This document shows, one piece after another, positions 33,001 to 51,000 of a stretch of 64,000 bases of DNA. Within the stretch, counting starts at the first letter, position 1. Every line of letters starts with the position of its first letter. A program made the position numbers. Where the stretch lies: positions 10,292,001-10,356,000 of the forward strand of contig OY740814.1 of NCBI GenBank assembly GCA_963514005.1, written 5' to 3'. This DNA comes from Raja brachyura. Its lineage: Eukaryota.

Positions 33001-36000
33001 TTGGTCAGGCTGAGTCCTCCCGCAACAAAACCATGCTGATTGTTAATAATTCTTGCTTTTTGAACTAGAGATTAATCTTGTCCCACAGAATTTTTCCCAA
33101 TAACATTCTTGCTCGTGACATTGGACACTCAGTCCCATAATTATATGGTTTATCACTGCTACCCATCTTGAATAAGGATACCACATTTGCTGTCCTCCAG
33201 TCATCTAGTGCTGGAGGACAGAAAATGTGTCCAGGGCCCCAGCAATCTCCTCCCTTGCCTTCCATAACAGCCTTGAATACTTCTTATGAATCCCTGAGGA
33301 TTTATACCACCTCAACACCTCGTCTCTCTGTTAATATTAACATGTTCTAGAATTTTGCTGAGCCGTTCTCTCCCTGGGTTCACCAACCAGATAAGACGCA
33401 GCTAGAATACAAATCAACATCCTGAATTTGAATTAGTATTATGTCTATTTGTAATAAGCACACATGGAAACACTGGTCGGGATTGAGATGTTCAGGTAAT
33501 TCTTTCATTAGCGAAGGCTTTACTGCTGTAAATGACAGAATAATTTTAAAAAACAAATTTGTTTTGTAATTATCCCCTGCTCATTAAATTTTAATGCATT
33601 AATAATTCTATCTGAATTTGTGTCACATCTTATATTTACAGTACATGTCAATAATATTGAACGAACAGTATCTGTACCACCTATCTGGTTCTGGTATCAA
33701 TACTGAAACGTCATGATAAGGTGAGTCCCATATTCCAATAAAAAATCACTCGTTATCTGTTTTATTTGTGTGTGTGTGTGGCCTGTGTACCAGCAGGTCA
33801 CATTGTCATACATTACAACTCAAACGTTGATAAAATACTTTGTTTTCTACTTGGAATTATAATTGTTCCAAATAATGAATGCAATAGCCAGAAAGGCAAT
33901 TGACCAAATTATTAGTCACATGGCGGCAGGTATCACAAATACCTCAAGAAAAACTGTCAACTCAAAATAATTGGTGAAAGGTCTTGACCTGAAACATTAA
34001 CTGTTACTCTTTCCATAGGTGCAGTTCGACCTCTGTTGAGTGTTTCAGCCTTTTCTGTTTCGATTTCAGACTTCCAGCAGCTGCAGTTTTGTATTAATTT
34101 CCAACTAATTCACTTACTAGAAAATGATTACACTTTTTAATGGATTTTTTTTAACAGTGATTTGTCTAACAATAATGTCCTTTAATACAATGTTACTGTA
34201 GTGAATGGGACCAACCTCTTTCTCGATATTATTGATTTTTTTAAATAATCAAGTGACTACAAATATCCGAACTGTAATTCCTGGGTCTTTGTCCCTCGGT
34301 ACAGGATTTTACCGGCATTGGTTTGCACTCGATGCGATGAGCAAGGCTGTGGAAACGAGGCTGCGATGCGCAGCCTGAACTATTAGGAGCCGGCGACTGC
34401 AGCTCGGTTCCCTGCACATCGACACCGAGTTACCGGCTCGGCTTTGGAGGCGGGTACACCGCATGTGGCCGTGCTTATTTCTCGCTTCAGGTTGGGGATG
34501 CGCTTGAGATCCCAGTGCTTGGCTCGCTGTCCCGAACGTTTCGCTGCCAGGTGATGTCACATGCCACGTGGATTTTGTTTTGGCTCCAGCTGCAATCAAC
34601 GACAACAAAAGCGGAGGAAAGAAAGGTATCAGTTTGACCGGGCGAAAAGCCGAGATTGGTGCTAGGGACCATGCCGCGGTAAAATACAAATATTTCATCT
34701 ACTATTTCTGAGTTTCCAAAGTTTCACATTGTGTGTGTGTTTCCCCATACACTGAAAACCCAAATCATTTTAAATGGAAAGGAACACTGGATTTACGATA
34801 ATCTAACTTTAAATATATTTGCTTCGAGAAAAAAAATGAATGAAATAATCAACTTTGAACCTTGCTTTTATTTCCATGTATTTAAATAATGTAATTAGAA
34901 CTGCACGTTGTTCTTTTACTTAAACGATGAGAAATCCTTCCATCTTTAGTTGAAGTGACCTTTTTCTGCCGTCCTCTCACTTCTGTTGACTGACAGTCCA
35001 ACAACTCCCACCCTTAATCGGCAGTCTCCAGTACTGTGCAACATTACTGGAAACAGTAGAATTCTGCCAGGCAGGTCCTAGTGCGTGGTGGTTTACACAA
35101 ATAATAAATAGACGTTTGTTTCTATTGAAGAGTAAACTTGATGTCAATTATGTTTGTCTGGCCCTAATTTGAAAAGTTCAGACACGGCTAGCCAGCTTGA
35201 AGTTCGCTGCTTGGGATGTTATAAAATTACTTTAACGGAGTATTTGGCAGGAGAATGAGAAGACGACTGAGAGAATAGTTTATCTTCAGTTTTTGGATGC
35301 AAACACATTAAGAGTAACTGCCGTAGGGAATTTATTGGACCAAGGTAAGTTAGATTTGTAGGTGTTGGAAATTGGTGGTTTGACATCTGATAATTAACTA
35401 TGTACAGTGCGGTGGAAAAAAACGAATGTGGTACTTTTGAAGAGCAGAGAGCTTTTCAGATGTAAATGATATTTTGCAACTGCGAAAACTGGAGTTAAAA
35501 TCAGATATAAAAAATATCTATTCATTTTTAACCAAAAGTGGGATTGGCTCAATTAGTGAGGTTTGGAAAGAGATTCAAAGATTCAATTTTAAATGAATTA
35601 GTGCTTGAAAGGCATTCTTTTTTGTGCTGTTAAGTTGTTTCATTTCACTAATTATGGCTTTTATTCCATGGAATATTGCAAAAAATTTGCATATTTAGAT
35701 TTTTGATTTAAGATAAGAAACTGACGTTAATTAAAAAGAGCAGCGTCCATAGAGTAATACAGTGGAAACAGACCCTTCAGCCCAACTTGCCCACACCAGC
35801 CAACAATGTCCCAGCTACCCTAATCCCACTTGCCTGCACTTGATTCATACCCCTCCAAACCTGTCCTATCCATGTACATGTCCAACTGTTTCTTAAACAA
35901 TGGGATAGCCCCTGCCTCAACTACCTCCACCCTCTGTGTGAAAAAGTTACCCCTCAGATTCCTATTAAATCTTTTTCCCCTTCACCTTGAACCTATGTTC

Positions 36001-48000: not shown

Positions 48001-51000
48001 GAGAAGAGAGGGACAAAACACTGCTGAAATTTTGAAACGTAGAGGGATGAAAAATTAATGTTGAAGGCAACTGGAAGCACACAGCACTCTTGTCGATGGG
48101 ACAGAGGTGCTCTCACATCTGTATTTAGTTTCTCCGCATCATGAGGACAGAACTCAGTAGATCAAATTGGCAGGAGAGCAAATAATACTTTACCTGGAAG
48201 GGGTCCCAGGATGATGGAATGGGAGGTGATATAAGGAAAGGTGTTGTGTCTGTTACTGTCGCGTGGCAATGGTTGGTTACAATAGAATCACAACAGCACA
48301 GTGGTTGGCACTGTTGCCTCACAGTTTGATCCTGGGCTCAGGTGATGTCTGTAGAGTTTTCACCTTCTTCCCATGACAATGCGATTTTATGCCAGGTTGT
48401 TGGGTGTTCCCCTACATTCCAAAAACATGCTGGTTGGTAAGCTGGAGATTTGTCTGTGTGGAGTTTGCACATTCTCCCTGTGACCACGCGGGTATCCTCC
48501 AGGTGCTTCGGTTTCCATCCACATCACAAAGGTAGATTCATTGGCCACTGTAAATTTTGCTTAACGTGTCAGTGAATGTTAGAATCTGGAGGGGAGTTAA
48601 TGTGAATATGAGGGAAATAAAGTGGGTGCTTGATGGTCAGTAAGGTCTCAATAGGCTGAATAACCCATTTCCATGCTTTATATGTCCTACTCATTACAAT
48701 GTTCTGCACTCACAGCCCCAGTATTGTTTCTTTCTTTTTCTCTTTGTCTTCATTTATCGCCATCTATCTGTTGTGGACCTTTATTGTAGGATGCAGCTTG
48801 ATAGAGGAGCTTTGTTCTAAATATGTTTGGTGTTAGGTCCATTCTCTCATATGTTTCAGTGATTACATCATCAACAACTTGGAGCTTGTCCTCAGAACAT
48901 GCGCATACACTAGTGCTGACTGCACACAACAGCTCAACAGCTCAAATCAATTCAAGGAAAACAAGTCAAGTTTGCACAACCAGTTTTCAATGCTGGTATC
49001 ATTTTAGTGAATCTGCACTGTAAACTCTGCAAACCCAATATATCCGAAGGTAGTTTAATAAAACTCCATGAGGCATATGTGTTGAATTTCAACATCTACA
49101 AATCCACATACCTCTCAAACTGGAAATATCCTTGATTCTAATGGGTTCACCTTTAAAGGGCTAAAGTACCTGACATCTTAAGTGAAGGGCTTAACTTAAG
49201 GTCAGAGGAAAGGTCCAGAACTGAAAAGTAATCTATCTATTCCTACACATGTTGCCTAACCCGCTGAGTCCTCCAGCATTTATTTTTTGCTTAAGTGAAT
49301 CCTTGTTTAACATATATTTTAGTAGTGCATTCAAAGGACCAATATTAAAATCTAAATAAATCTTAACCATTTTTTTTCAAAGTTATCTCTACAATTAATA
49401 TCAAATGATCTTTCCGTCAAAAATAAATCGGTGCTCTTTATCATTTTAAGAATATCAAGTGGAACTCCTCATTCTACCCTTTTCCGTTGAAAAAAATGAT
49501 TTCCGGATGCTGATAGCTTAAAACTTTGCTCATTTCTTGACCTTCTCCAAGGCCTCAATTTCCGTCATGTCCATCAAAGTGAGTAAAATTGAGATACATT
49601 TCTAACATCTGCTGTGAGGGTCTGAACAGCAAACCTCTACTGTCTTCATGGTTTATTCCTCATATCATGGCTTATACACAGTGACATTCATTGCATGGTC
49701 ATAGCACCTCTGGGTTCATCATTGGCTAATCATATTGTCTGATAGAATTCTTAAAGTTAAATGTTTTAATTGTACGCATCCCATTCACTAAATCCATTTG
49801 TGTATGTTATTTTTCTAGATGATTTGTCAGAATGTCCCATGCTTTTCCATGTTATGTCTATCCATTTGCTTTGTTTTTACAGTCTTAAAATGGCTGAAAA
49901 GGAACAGGACCCACAGAAAGTCCTTTAAAGGTAGAGTTCGGCCGAGGCCCTTACTTGGTCCAGACTGTGTTATATGTTATTAGTGCATGGCAACTCCAGT
50001 GTATAATGACCATTTCACTTGCTCAAACATCTTGATTTGTACCATTTGTTCCCATTTCTTCCCATTTCTTCCAAATTCTTCCCATTTGTTTCGTGCTCCG
50101 TACCGTTGCACTGACAGGATTTGACACTGAGTAGGTCAATGAGTTTCGTGCTACTATTTATCCCGAATAAATAGATTTTGTTGGACAAATCCTGAATAAA
50201 TTATACACTAATCTCAAAGTATTGCCATCTTTGACAGACAAATTGTTTTGAGTTGTGTTGGACATGATGTTTGATAAATGAATAATATAGATAGGACACG
50301 AGATGAAACACATCATTAAATTCATTCAGACTGGCACCAAACCATAGGGTTCCTTTTTTAATGAGAAAAAAGAGAACTTTTTTTTGATAATAAAATCATC
50401 AAAAGCACAATCAAGAAATTATATTTAGTAGGTGGCCATTAATAGAGAATGACGCACATATATTTACTTTAAAAAGAGGAAATTCCACCCTATCATTAGA
50501 TAAGCTTGGGTGTACTGATGATGTTTAAAAGGTGATAGAAAGTTAGTAACATAAAATCAATTGAGGTAGAAATACCTGTCATTGTAATGTGTTACATGGG
50601 CTGTTTAAAAAAAAATGTCATATGGAATCACTGTTAAAATCAAAAGAAAGATAGCCAACTGATTATTTAGTGTATGCAAGGTGCTCGAGGAACTGAGTAG
50701 GCAGCGCAGCATCGGGGGGGGGGGGAGGGGGGGGGGGGTGGATTTGTGGTGTTTTAGATCACGACCCTTCAGCCAAGACCCGAAACATCACATCTATTCC
50801 CTCCCCAGATGCTGCCTGACCCTCAGAGTTCCTCCAGCATTTTGTGTTTAGCTCAAGATTCCATTAAGTAAGTCGACATTATCGACAGTTTCTTCAGTCT
50901 CCTAGTTATCCAATCTATTATTTATTTAGTTATCCAATCTATTATTTATTTATTTCAATTAATTATATATATATAATATTGCCCCAGCAGGAGAGATAAA

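What the first reader, a model, noticed from the sequence alone, without database searches (positions are those of the whole stretch)
34300..49062. Unrecognised multi-exon gene for a type II membrane protein between ABHD17C and the hyaluronidase gene
Seen: a CpG-rich promoter-like island (34.3-34.7 kb) and a consensus donor at 35344. Three exons with canonical splice sites follow, and their phases chain: 37233-37578 (346 nt), 45048-45530 (483 nt), 48860-49023 (164 nt). The total is 993 nt, 330 aa, with AATAAA 34 nt after the stop. The product has a ~80-aa N-terminal tail, a KKRRR cluster before one hydrophobic segment, a Leu/Lys-rich region and a Ser/Thr-rich end with NSS sequons. Knowledge: basic residues N-terminal to a single TM indicate N-in/C-out topology. 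Inference: an orphan or fast-evolving surface or shed protein that I cannot assign to any family. The third exon is the weakest part of the model.
Basis: partly seen in the sequence, partly recalled or inferred. Interest (0 to 1): 0.8.

Follow-up and report, generated by a model that had tools for sequence, protein, structure and literature searches.

The report
Front end of a hyaluronidase-family gene
The supposed orphan membrane-protein gene is the front part of the neighbouring hyaluronidase-family gene: it supplies that enzyme's membrane anchor and an extra helical domain of unknown fold, and the same gene is already machine-annotated in related skates.

Summary
They are not a separate gene. 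Exon by exon, they match the N-terminus of RefSeq "cell surface hyaluronidase-like / CEMIP2-like" proteins of skates, rays, sharks and a chimaera. The best match is Amblyraja radiata, 91% over exon 2.

Those models run on through a 48-nt micro-exon (49883-49930) into the G8-domain exons at 61407, 61811 and 63208. It matches no protein, and such a frame is no rarer than chance.

The gene is a third CEMIP-family paralog. It forms a clade apart from CEMIP2, found from chondrichthyans to birds, with no mammal among the rows listed. In this skate the N-terminal module is:
- an 82-residue tail with KKRRR;
- a 19-residue hydrophobic anchor;
- a glycosylation sequon;
- a conserved helical domain of about 115 residues with two invariant cysteines, no Pfam family and no PDB match.

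Verdict: an ordinary gene-model correction, with a modestly interesting uncharacterised domain.

The parts
34300..34700 (+). CpG island and distal promoter region of the CEMIP2-like gene
   Evidence: GC 54%, CpG o/e 1.03 against 0.35 for the window. It contains the first exon used by the X1-type skate isoforms.
34561..34625 (+). Alternative first coding exon (ATG 34561, 21 codons plus 2 bases, donor GT at 34626-27). It adds MPRGFCFGSSCNQRQQKRRKE to the tail.
   Evidence: Open in the window. tblastn gives 91.7% over 24 residues to Leucoraja and Amblyraja X1/X3/X7 isoforms. Splice site read.
35307..35344 (+). It is non-coding in this species; where the exon starts is unknown.
   Evidence: Matches the IKSNCRREFIGPR stretch of X2 isoforms of three other skates. 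In the window the frame has two stops and no ATG after the last one.
37226..37578 (+).
   Evidence: Identity is 60-88% to batoid orthologs. BLASTP hits 12 of 144 family proteins, all chondrichthyan.
45048..45530 (+).
   Evidence: (E 4e-85).
48860..49023 (+). It is unsupported: at best an alternative terminal exon, more likely a chance open frame in the intron.
   Evidence: No protein match. Not used by any of 14 skate isoforms. Chance frequency 5 of 37 and 101 of 1086. No repeat copy in the window.
49883..49930 (+). 48-nt cassette micro-exon encoding VLKWLKRNRTHRKSFK (7 of 16 residues are K or R). This is the true next exon after 45530.
   Evidence: 100% identity to Amblyraja and Pristis. AG at 49881-82 and GT at 49931-32. 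Skipped in the X3 isoforms of Leucoraja and Amblyraja.
60600..61000 (+). Second CpG island, with TATAAATA at 60757-60764, inside the 11.5-kb intron. Probably an internal promoter for short isoforms.
   Evidence: GC 70%, CpG o/e 0.94. Sequence. The Amblyraja X6 isoform starts at the ATG equivalent to 61274.
61407..61547 (+). Coding exon (VDCPDKAIYLLPWNPGHH...), the start of the conserved ectodomain body.
61811..62370 (+). Coding exon carrying the G8 domain and the start of the ILEI/GG domain.
   Evidence: Pfam G8 2.7e-24 and ILEI 3.7e-19. PDB 8c6i (TMEM2 ectodomain) 2.4e-57. 94% identity to Amblyraja.
63208..63371 (+). Next coding exon. The gene then runs off the window.

Best explanation
Bases 34300-49062 hold the promoter and the 5' exons of the downstream hyaluronidase-family gene. 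That gene is a third paralog of the CEMIP/CEMIP2 (KIAA1199/TMEM2) family, which RefSeq labels 'cell surface hyaluronidase-like' or 'CEMIP2-like'.

Shown:
- Transcription can start in the CpG island. One first exon carries its own ATG at 34561; another 5' exon ends at 35344 and is non-coding in this species.
- The coding exons follow in this order, every junction from exon 2 on being phase 1: 37226-37578, 45048-45530, the optional micro-exon 49883-49930, then 61407-61547, 61811-62370, 63208-63371 and beyond the window.

Inferred:
- The 82-residue N-terminal tail, or 104 residues with the upstream ATG, stays in the cytosol.
- The KKRRR cluster and the 19-22-residue hydrophobic stretch act as an uncleaved signal-anchor, giving type II topology.
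- Everything downstream lies outside the cell: the glycosylated linker, a disulfide-braced helical domain of about 115 residues, the basic cassette, and the G8/beta-helix/lectin-like body that binds or degrades hyaluronan.

Guessed, low confidence:
- The helical domain is a folded N-terminal module peculiar to this paralog. It may space the enzyme body from the membrane or regulate it.
- The alternatively spliced basic cassette, which holds an R-x-x-R motif, may tune shedding or glycosaminoglycan contact.
For: Assignment to the hyaluronidase gene:
- The exon-2 peptide hits 8 proteins. Six are 1522-1583-residue hyaluronidase-like proteins of skates, rays and sharks, at 59-91% identity.
- tblastn maps the Amblyraja and Pristis proteins collinearly onto 37224-37577, 45038-45529, 49882-49929, 61388-61552, 61810-62370 and 63203-63373.
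- Of the 14 proteins of that 90% cluster that I mapped, 11 carry exons 1 and 2 joined to the G8 exons. The other 3 lack the N-terminus.
- Canonical AG/GT sites and matching phases were read directly.
- The window's own exon 61811-62370 has G8 and ILEI domains and matches the solved TMEM2 ectodomain.

Paralog status: in the quick ML tree of 32 rows, a 23-row CEMIP2-like clade and a 7-row CEMIP2 clade each have SH-aLRT 100. Amia and Lepisosteus have one gene in each clade.

The helical domain:
- BLASTP finds it in 62 of 144 family proteins and in 0 of 11 true CEMIP2 rows.
- C60, C87, K109 and L120 are invariant in 41 rows.
- AlphaFold2 with that alignment gives block-mean pLDDT 70-94 over residues 41-150, pTM 0.62 and four main helices.

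Topology: Kyte-Doolittle 2.43 at residues 82-100, KKRRR upstream. An N-x-S/T sequon follows the hydrophobic stretch in most lineages.
Against: - No transcript data exist for this species, so the joins rest on predicted RefSeq models of relatives and on collinearity.
- Some pipelines annotate the N-terminal module alone: Narcine 313 aa, Malaclemys 258 aa, Pangshura 328 aa, Xenopus laevis 301 aa. Mobula has it fused to ABHD17C. Short transcripts ending after exon 2 or after the micro-exon may therefore exist.
- A second CpG island with a TATA box at 60.6-61.0 kb could drive the body without these exons.
- The anchor was judged by hydropathy alone. In birds and turtles the equivalent segment looks like a cleavable signal peptide, so cleavage in skates is not excluded.
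- The tail shows no sequence similarity to the CEMIP2 tail (hhalign probability 1.7%, only the hydrophobic segment aligned).
- The helical domain's function is untested, and its fold matched nothing.
Confidence: 0.88

Rival explanations
1. One reading: an independent three-exon gene giving a 330-residue type II membrane protein that ends in exon 48860-49023 with its own poly(A) signal.
For: Canonical acceptor, open frame, and AATAAA 34 nt after the stop. Some pipelines do annotate the N-terminal module as its own small protein: Narcine XP_069767355.1, and the turtle and Xenopus models.
Against: - No annotated protein contains anything like the exon-3 peptide (7 candidates, none at E <= 10; weak, because only cluster representatives of 94-2000 residues were searched).
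- None of the 14 skate isoforms uses it.
- The stand-alone Narcine model ends by reading through the micro-exon's donor, not in this exon.
- Open frames of this size after an acceptor-like site are common here: 5 of 37, and 101 of 1086.
- Without exons 1-2 the enzyme body has no signal or anchor sequence. The short isoforms begin MMSRSPFVHR... or MFLKLESS....
Confidence: 0.04
2. Both products exist. Besides the full-length anchored enzyme, alternative terminal exons or intron retention after exon 2 or the micro-exon yield a short membrane protein (tail, anchor and helical domain only), and the reader's exon 3 could be one such end.
For: - Mobula models end NNEH+VI*, NNEH+DSNSKSSIIALPRASE* and micro-exon+P+VI*.
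- The Narcine 313-residue model ends 16 residues into the retained intron. Those residues are largely conserved in the window: tblastn gives 84% over 32 residues, micro-exon included.
With only two residues this is a lead and no more.
Against: - These are computed models, and the Mobula ones are ABHD17C read-through fusions.
- The C-terminal extensions differ from species to species, as expected of non-functional or decay-targeted transcripts.
- The conserved intron flank fits splicing control of a cassette exon equally well.
- No short isoform of a skate was seen among the 15 of 24 cluster members listed.
Confidence: 0.2
3. The hydrophobic segment is a cleaved signal peptide with a long n-region. 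The skate protein would then be secreted, like CEMIP, and not anchored.
For: In birds, turtles and frogs the aligned segment is shorter (about 11-14 hydrophobic residues) and is followed by small residues such as AQA, SQA or AAG, as in cleavage sites. CEMIP itself is secreted through an N-terminal signal peptide (passages of PMC11275217, and PMC10206443).
Against: In all 14 chondrichthyan sequences (the window plus 13 orthologs) the segment sits behind 70-100 residues. It is 19-22 residues long and is preceded by a basic cluster, which is the layout of the type II anchor of CEMIP2 (anchor at residue 83 in the CEMIP2 rows). No signal-peptide predictor was on hand.
Confidence: 0.2

Closest known systems
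RefSeq predicted proteins 'cell surface hyaluronidase-like' of Amblyraja radiata (XP_032906153.1, XP_032906156.1 and others), Leucoraja erinacea (XP_055517167.1 and others), and 'CEMIP2-like' of Rhinoraja longicauda
   Same: Orthologs. The exon order is the same, and they map collinearly onto the window at 81-100% identity per exon, with the same alternative first exons and the same cassette micro-exon.
   Different: The window is a different skate: 82-88% identity in exon 1 and 89-92% in exon 2. Here the exon ending at 35344 has no start codon. The start codon of the short isoform (61274) is out of frame with the next exon (reading).
CEMIP2 / TMEM2 (cell-surface hyaluronidase; solved ectodomain PDB 8c6i)
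   Same: Same family: G8 and ILEI/GG domains, and E 2.4e-57 to 8c6i. The N-terminal layout is also the same: a tail of about 82 residues, a basic cluster, then one hydrophobic segment at about residue 83. TMEM2 is a type II membrane protein (passage of PMC10206443).
   Different: It forms a separate clade, at 61-62% identity in the body against 63-72% to non-chondrichthyan and 79-90% to chondrichthyan members of its own clade. The tails show no detectable similarity. In CEMIP2 the CPD motif follows the anchor within about 10 residues. Here about 190 residues lie between them (linker, helical domain, basic cassette), and 0 of 11 CEMIP2 rows have that domain.
CEMIP / KIAA1199 / HYBID
   Same: Same family and domain plan (passages of PMC11275217 and PMC10206443). 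From memory, not from a call: the human gene also lies beside ABHD17C.
   Different: CEMIP is secreted through an N-terminal signal peptide, and the review gives its identity to TMEM2 as 48%. No true CEMIP reached the best 120 of 1321 hits, so it is more distant than CEMIP2. I had no CEMIP sequence in the tree.
Stand-alone 'uncharacterized protein' models: Narcine bancroftii XP_069767355.1, Malaclemys LOC128844027, Pangshura, Xenopus laevis OCT89719.1
   Different: Narcine reads into the intron after the micro-exon, and its accession number is next to that of the 963-residue hyaluronidase body on the same contig. That suggests a split gene model.

Membership tests
CEMIP family (CEMIP / CEMIP2 hyaluronan-degrading proteins) | G8 domain at the start of the ectodomain | tested here: met
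   Pfam PF10162, E 2.7e-24, 85.8 bits (cut-off 22.9) on window exon 61811-62370.
CEMIP family (CEMIP / CEMIP2 hyaluronan-degrading proteins) | GG / ILEI (FAM3-like) lectin-like domain after G8 | tested here: met
   Pfam PF15711, E 3.7e-19 on the same exon. FAM3 chains also appear in the PDB search.
CEMIP family (CEMIP / CEMIP2 hyaluronan-degrading proteins) | Long beta-helix body and C-terminal domains | not testable with these tools
   The gene runs off the window after 63371. The orthologs carry PF24606 and PF24605 (precomputed).
CEMIP family (CEMIP / CEMIP2 hyaluronan-degrading proteins) | The finding's exons lie in the same transcript as the enzyme body | tested here: met
   Met through ortholog models only: 11 of 14 mapped skate proteins join them, and Amblyraja and Pristis map collinearly. 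There are no reads from this species.
CEMIP2 / TMEM2 orthologs | Groups with CEMIP2 in a family tree | tested here: not met
   Quick ML tree of 32 rows: the skate ortholog falls in a 23-row clade (SH-aLRT 100) that is sister to the 7-row CEMIP2 clade (SH-aLRT 100).
CEMIP2 / TMEM2 orthologs | Beta-helix starts within a few residues of the anchor | tested here: not met
   About 190 residues (exon 2 plus the micro-exon) separate the anchor from the CPD motif. In the CEMIP2 rows the gap is about 10 residues.
Type II (N-in) single-pass membrane proteins | One hydrophobic segment of about 20 residues, far from the N-terminus, with basic residues on its N-terminal side | tested here: met
   Kyte-Doolittle 2.43 over residues 82-100, and KKRRR at 67-71. 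The same holds in all 14 chondrichthyan sequences, the window included.
Type II (N-in) single-pass membrane proteins | Anchor not cleaved; C-terminus outside the cell | not testable with these tools
   There was no signal-peptide or topology predictor and no experiment. Indirect support: a conserved N-x-S/T sequon and two invariant cysteines downstream.
Any known helical fold or domain family (for the exon-2 domain) | Significant match to a Pfam model, a PDB sequence or a PDB fold | tested here: not met
   Pfam: 0 families at E <= 10. PDB profile search: 0 hits at E <= 10. Foldseek against PDB: best E 4.4, probability at most 0.12. ESM Atlas: only unnamed clusters, with recognition below the useful range.

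The most novel reading that the evidence does not exclude
The helical, two-cysteine domain encoded by 45048-45530 is a new extracellular domain family. It defines an undescribed third CEMIP-family gene that is ancient in jawed vertebrates and absent from mammals. In cartilaginous fishes it is made both on a membrane-anchored hyaluronidase and, through alternative terminal exons, as a short anchor-plus-domain protein that regulates hyaluronan turnover at the cell surface.
Probability: 0.12. Interest if true: 0.5.

Novelty: new member of a known kind. Interest (0 to 1): 0.3.

Why it matters
For the scan, this is a gene-model correction. Two real exons were given to a phantom orphan gene because the next exon is a 48-nt micro-exon and the one after it lies 11.5 kb further on. 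Annotation pipelines made the same split in Narcine, two turtles and Xenopus laevis.

For hyaluronan biology, the passages I read state that two such proteins exist, CEMIP (secreted) and TMEM2/CEMIP2 (anchored). Non-mammalian vertebrates carry a third. It has an extra conserved N-terminal domain, and its hydrophobic leader looks like an anchor in cartilaginous fishes and like a signal peptide in birds. That makes it a natural case of the anchored-versus-secreted switch within one gene lineage. My four literature searches found no paper on it.

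Tried and rejected
- Pfam on the three exon peptides gave only sub-threshold noise on the hydrophobic segment.
- The single-sequence AlphaFold2 model of exon 2 was poor (pLDDT 51). It was replaced by the alignment-based model.
- Foldseek against PDB, a PDB profile search and the ESM Atlas gave no relatives for the helical domain.
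- A four-helix cytokine-like reading was considered and dropped, because nothing supported it.
- hhalign of the tail-plus-anchor against CEMIP2 N-termini aligned only the hydrophobic segment.
- Complex prediction, helical domain against residues 311-1000 of the Amblyraja body, returned 'no answer'. It is not used as evidence either way. The tool did not use my alignments.
- The careful tree did not finish in the time allowed, so the quick tree (SH-aLRT only) is reported.
- A transposon origin of the exons was checked within the window only. Exons 1, 2, 3 and the micro-exon have no other copy in the window. Interspersed-repeat fragments flank exon 3, at 48451-48532 and about 49249-49281.
- Rfam and tRNA scans of the window found nothing.
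- A B(X7)B hyaluronan-binding motif in the micro-exon was looked for by eye and not found.

Full report
**Observation.**
- The island at 34300-34700 has GC 54% and CpG observed/expected 1.03. The whole window has 0.35.
- A consensus donor follows 35344.
- The exon with ATG 37233 has acceptor AG at 37224-25 and donor GT at 37579-80, and reads 115 codons plus one base.
- Exon 45048-45530 has AG at 45046-47 and GT at 45531-32, and reads 160 codons between split codons.
- The stretch 48860-49023 has an acceptor, an open frame, TAA, and AATAAA at 49057-62.
- The KKRRR cluster (residues 67-71) and one hydrophobic stretch (Kyte-Doolittle 2.43, residues 82-100) are there.

The joined coding sequence was never made, translated, searched or folded, so the 330-residue product was checked by arithmetic only. 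The window contains no N.

**What the exons belong to.** The exon-2 peptide, searched alone among longer proteins, found 8 proteins.
- Six are 1522-1583-residue RefSeq/UniRef proteins named 'cell surface hyaluronidase-like' or 'CEMIP2-like'. They come from Amblyraja radiata (91% identity, E 4e-85), Pristis, Hypanus, Pristiophorus, Cetorhinus and Scyliorhinus.
- One is a 313-residue 'uncharacterized protein' of Narcine.
- One is a 498-residue 'ABHD17C isoform X3' of Mobula.

Mapped back with tblastn, the Amblyraja and Pristis proteins cover 37224-37577, 45038-45529, 49882-49929, 61388-61552, 61810-62370 and 63203-63373, in order and on the + strand.

I mapped 14 of the 15 listed members of the 24-member 90% cluster (Amblyraja, Leucoraja, Rhinoraja, Narcine).
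- Eleven carry exons 1 and 2 followed by the G8 exons.
- Two start inside or just before the 61407 exon (1289 and 1245 residues).
- One is a 963-residue C-terminal fragment.
- None uses 48860-49023.

**Gene structure in the window** (splice sites read).
- Alternative first exons. One lies inside the CpG island: ATG 34561, 21 codons plus 2 bases, donor at 34626. It is open here and 91.7% identical to the X1-type start of Leucoraja and Amblyraja. Another ends at 35344. In three other skates that exon supplies a start (MKNT...). Here its frame has two stops and no ATG after them, so it is non-coding in this species.
- Then 37226-37578 and 45048-45530.
- Then a 48-nt micro-exon, 49883-49930 (AG at 49881-82, GT at 49931-32). 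It encodes VLKWLKRNRTHRKSFK, identical in Amblyraja and Pristis.
- Then an 11.5-kb intron, followed by 61407-61547, 61811-62370 and 63208-63371, after which the gene leaves the window.
- From the end of exon 37226-37578, every junction up to the acceptor of 61811-62370 is phase 1; 62370>63208 is phase 2 and the donor after 63371 is phase 1 again.
- The micro-exon is a cassette. The X3 isoforms of Leucoraja and Amblyraja are exactly 16 residues shorter and map from 45529 straight to 61394.

Four checks speak against it.
- Its peptide matched nothing. Among proteins of 94-2000 residues, 7 candidates shared words and none scored E <= 10. This negative is weak, because only cluster representatives are searched.
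- No mapped isoform uses it.
- It is not unusual. Between 45531 and 61406, 101 of 1086 AG sites give a phase-1 frame of at least 54 codons. Of the 37 sites with at least 11 of 15 pyrimidines and a pyrimidine at -3, 5 do so. AATAAA occurs 35 times in the 34 kb examined.
- It has no other copy in the window. Interspersed-repeat fragments lie on either side, at 48451-48532 and about 49249-49281.

One lead remains. Two residues cannot establish that this exon is one of those ends.

**Which family member.** Window exon 61811-62370 carries G8 (E 2.7e-24) and ILEI (E 3.7e-19) and matches the solved TMEM2 ectodomain 8c6i at E 2.4e-57.

A search with residues 300-900 of the Amblyraja protein gave 1321 proteins at E <= 1e-20, of which the best 120 were listed.
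- Chondrichthyans score 79-90% identity.
- Coelacanth, lungfish, sturgeon, gar, bowfin, bichir, eels, amphibians, turtles, crocodilians, squamates and birds score 63-72%.
- The mammalian, gar, bowfin and caecilian proteins that carry an anchor at residue 82-83 (true CEMIP2) score 61-62%.
- No mammal appears in the upper group.

I built a quick maximum-likelihood tree of 32 rows chosen for taxon spread (LG+C20+F+G4, SH-aLRT only; the careful run did not finish). It gives a 23-row clade and a 7-row CEMIP2 clade, each with support 100. Lingula and Branchiostoma fall outside, and Amia and Lepisosteus are present in both clades.

No true CEMIP sequence was in hand, so its position is not shown. The review PMC11275217 gives 48% identity between CEMIP and TMEM2 (passage), which suggests CEMIP is the more distant of the three.

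**Anatomy of the N-terminal module.**
- Exon 1 is detectable by BLASTP only in chondrichthyans: 12 of 144 family proteins. Exon 2 is detectable in 62 of 144, and in 0 of 11 true CEMIP2 rows.
- The all-against-library search with exon 2 found 8 representatives. They include turtle 'uncharacterized' proteins, a Xenopus laevis hypothetical protein, an Ambystoma 'CEMIP2-like' protein and a bird 'CEMIP2-like / TMEM2 hyaluronidase' cluster.
- In a 41-row alignment, C60, C87, K109 and L120 of the exon-2 peptide are invariant and 14 further positions are at least 90% conserved.
- With that alignment AlphaFold2 gives mean pLDDT 69 and pTM 0.62. Residues 1-39 are disordered and include the NSS sequon at 17. 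Block-mean pLDDT over residues 41-150 is 70-94. The helices are 43-52, 60-78, 110-122 and 128-155.
- Foldseek against the PDB found nothing (best E 4.4), and neither did a profile search of PDB sequences.
- The aligned N-termini show a long tail and a 19-22-residue hydrophobic segment in chondrichthyans. Birds, turtles and frogs have a shorter hydrophobic core followed by AQA-, SQA- or AAG-like ends. I read the latter as a probable cleavable signal peptide. That is an inference, since no predictor was available.

**Comparison with what is known.** TMEM2/CEMIP2 is a type II membrane protein whose ectodomain construct starts at residue 106 and whose beta-helix 'starts at the N terminus'. CEMIP is secreted (passages of PMC10206443, and of PMC11275217).

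The skate protein shares the CEMIP2 layout of a tail of about 82 residues, a basic cluster and an anchor at about residue 83. There is no detectable sequence similarity in the tail (hhalign probability 1.7%). About 190 extra residues lie between the anchor and the CPD motif.

Both passages speak of two family members. Four full-text searches found no paper describing a third paralog (terms such as CEMIP2-like, TMEM2-like, CEMIP3, 'lost in mammals', synteny and ABHD17C). 'TMEM2L' in the hits is an alias of CEMIP. For those hits I saw search listings only.

**Mechanism.**
- Shown: exon order, splice sites, homology, domain conservation, and clade membership.
- Inferred: the basic cluster and hydrophobic segment insert as an uncleaved signal-anchor, with the N-terminus in the cytosol. 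The glycosylated linker, the disulfide-braced helical domain, the optional basic cassette and the G8/beta-helix body face outward, where the body acts on hyaluronan as its relatives do.
- Guessed: the helical domain spaces or regulates the body, and the cassette (7 of 16 residues K or R, containing R-T-H-R) modulates shedding or glycosaminoglycan contact.
- The 45 bases after the micro-exon's donor translate to a peptide largely conserved in the Narcine read-through model. tblastn gives 84% over 32 residues, micro-exon included. This fits regulated splicing of a cassette exon.

**Context.** ABHD17C exons lie at 14491-14952 and 22305-22490 (97% and 95% identical to Mobula ABHD17C), and its presumed last exon lies within 29502-29798 (only sub-threshold alpha/beta-hydrolase matches). 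The gene order ABHD17C, then this gene, is thus confirmed on the + strand. From memory only: human CEMIP lies beside ABHD17C and human CEMIP2 beside ABHD17B.

**Not checked.** There were no transcript reads and no vertebrate genome or transcriptome collection, so I have no orthologous DNA, no dN/dS and no junction counts. The one bacterial genome scan was not used.

**Verdict.** The finding is the 5' end of a machine-annotated but unstudied CEMIP-family paralog, and exon 3 should be dropped. Interest is low to moderate. It rests on the uncharacterised conserved helical domain and on the third paralog itself.

Noticed in passing
window 60600-61320: A second CpG island (GC 70%, CpG o/e 0.94) with TATAAATA at 60757-64 sits inside the 11.5-kb intron. 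The Amblyraja X6 short isoform starts at the ATG equivalent to 61274. In this window that ATG runs 45 nt to the donor at 61319, so it is out of frame with the phase-1 exon at 61407. Isoforms starting here would have neither signal nor anchor.
   Followed up: partly
window 59424-60531: A G-rich minisatellite (82-nt unit, 13.5 copies, 95% matches) lies directly upstream of the second CpG island. It produces the long spurious open frames on the - strand listed.
   Followed up: partly
window 15041-17761: A large G-rich minisatellite (37-nt unit, 75 copies, 87% matches) lies in the first intron of ABHD17C, just after its CpG-rich first exon.
   Followed up: no
window 14491-37578 (ABHD17C and the next gene): The Mobula birostris RefSeq 'ABHD17C' isoforms X1-X3 (498-515 aa) splice ABHD17C exon 2 to the exon equivalent to 37226 and continue through exon 2. 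These are read-through fusions of the two neighbouring genes.
   Followed up: partly
window 49931-49975: The intron sequence just after the micro-exon's donor, read in frame, is largely conserved in the Narcine read-through model. This may be a splicing-control element for the cassette exon.
   Followed up: no
window 35220-35344: The 5' exon ending at 35344 supplies a start codon (MKNT...) in Amblyraja, Leucoraja and Rhinoraja. Here it has stops and no ATG, so that N-terminal extension is not conserved even among skates.
   Followed up: yes
window 19161-20018 (-), 3480-3998 (+), 36450-36750, 43210-43485: Transposon remains: a reverse-transcriptase frame (RVT_1, E 3.8e-31), a hAT dimerisation-domain frame (E 1.9e-6), an interspersed-repeat (SINE-like by eye) copy in the first intron of the finding with a partial second copy at 48451-48532, and a further RT-like frame at 43210-43485 that Pfam did not call.
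   Followed up: partly
proteins P0091 and P0041: Annotation oddities in relatives. The Bufo bufo member of this clade is named CEMIP although it carries the exon-2 domain. The Latimeria model (1970 aa) carries a hAT transposase domain (PF05699), which probably reflects a merged gene model.
   Followed up: no
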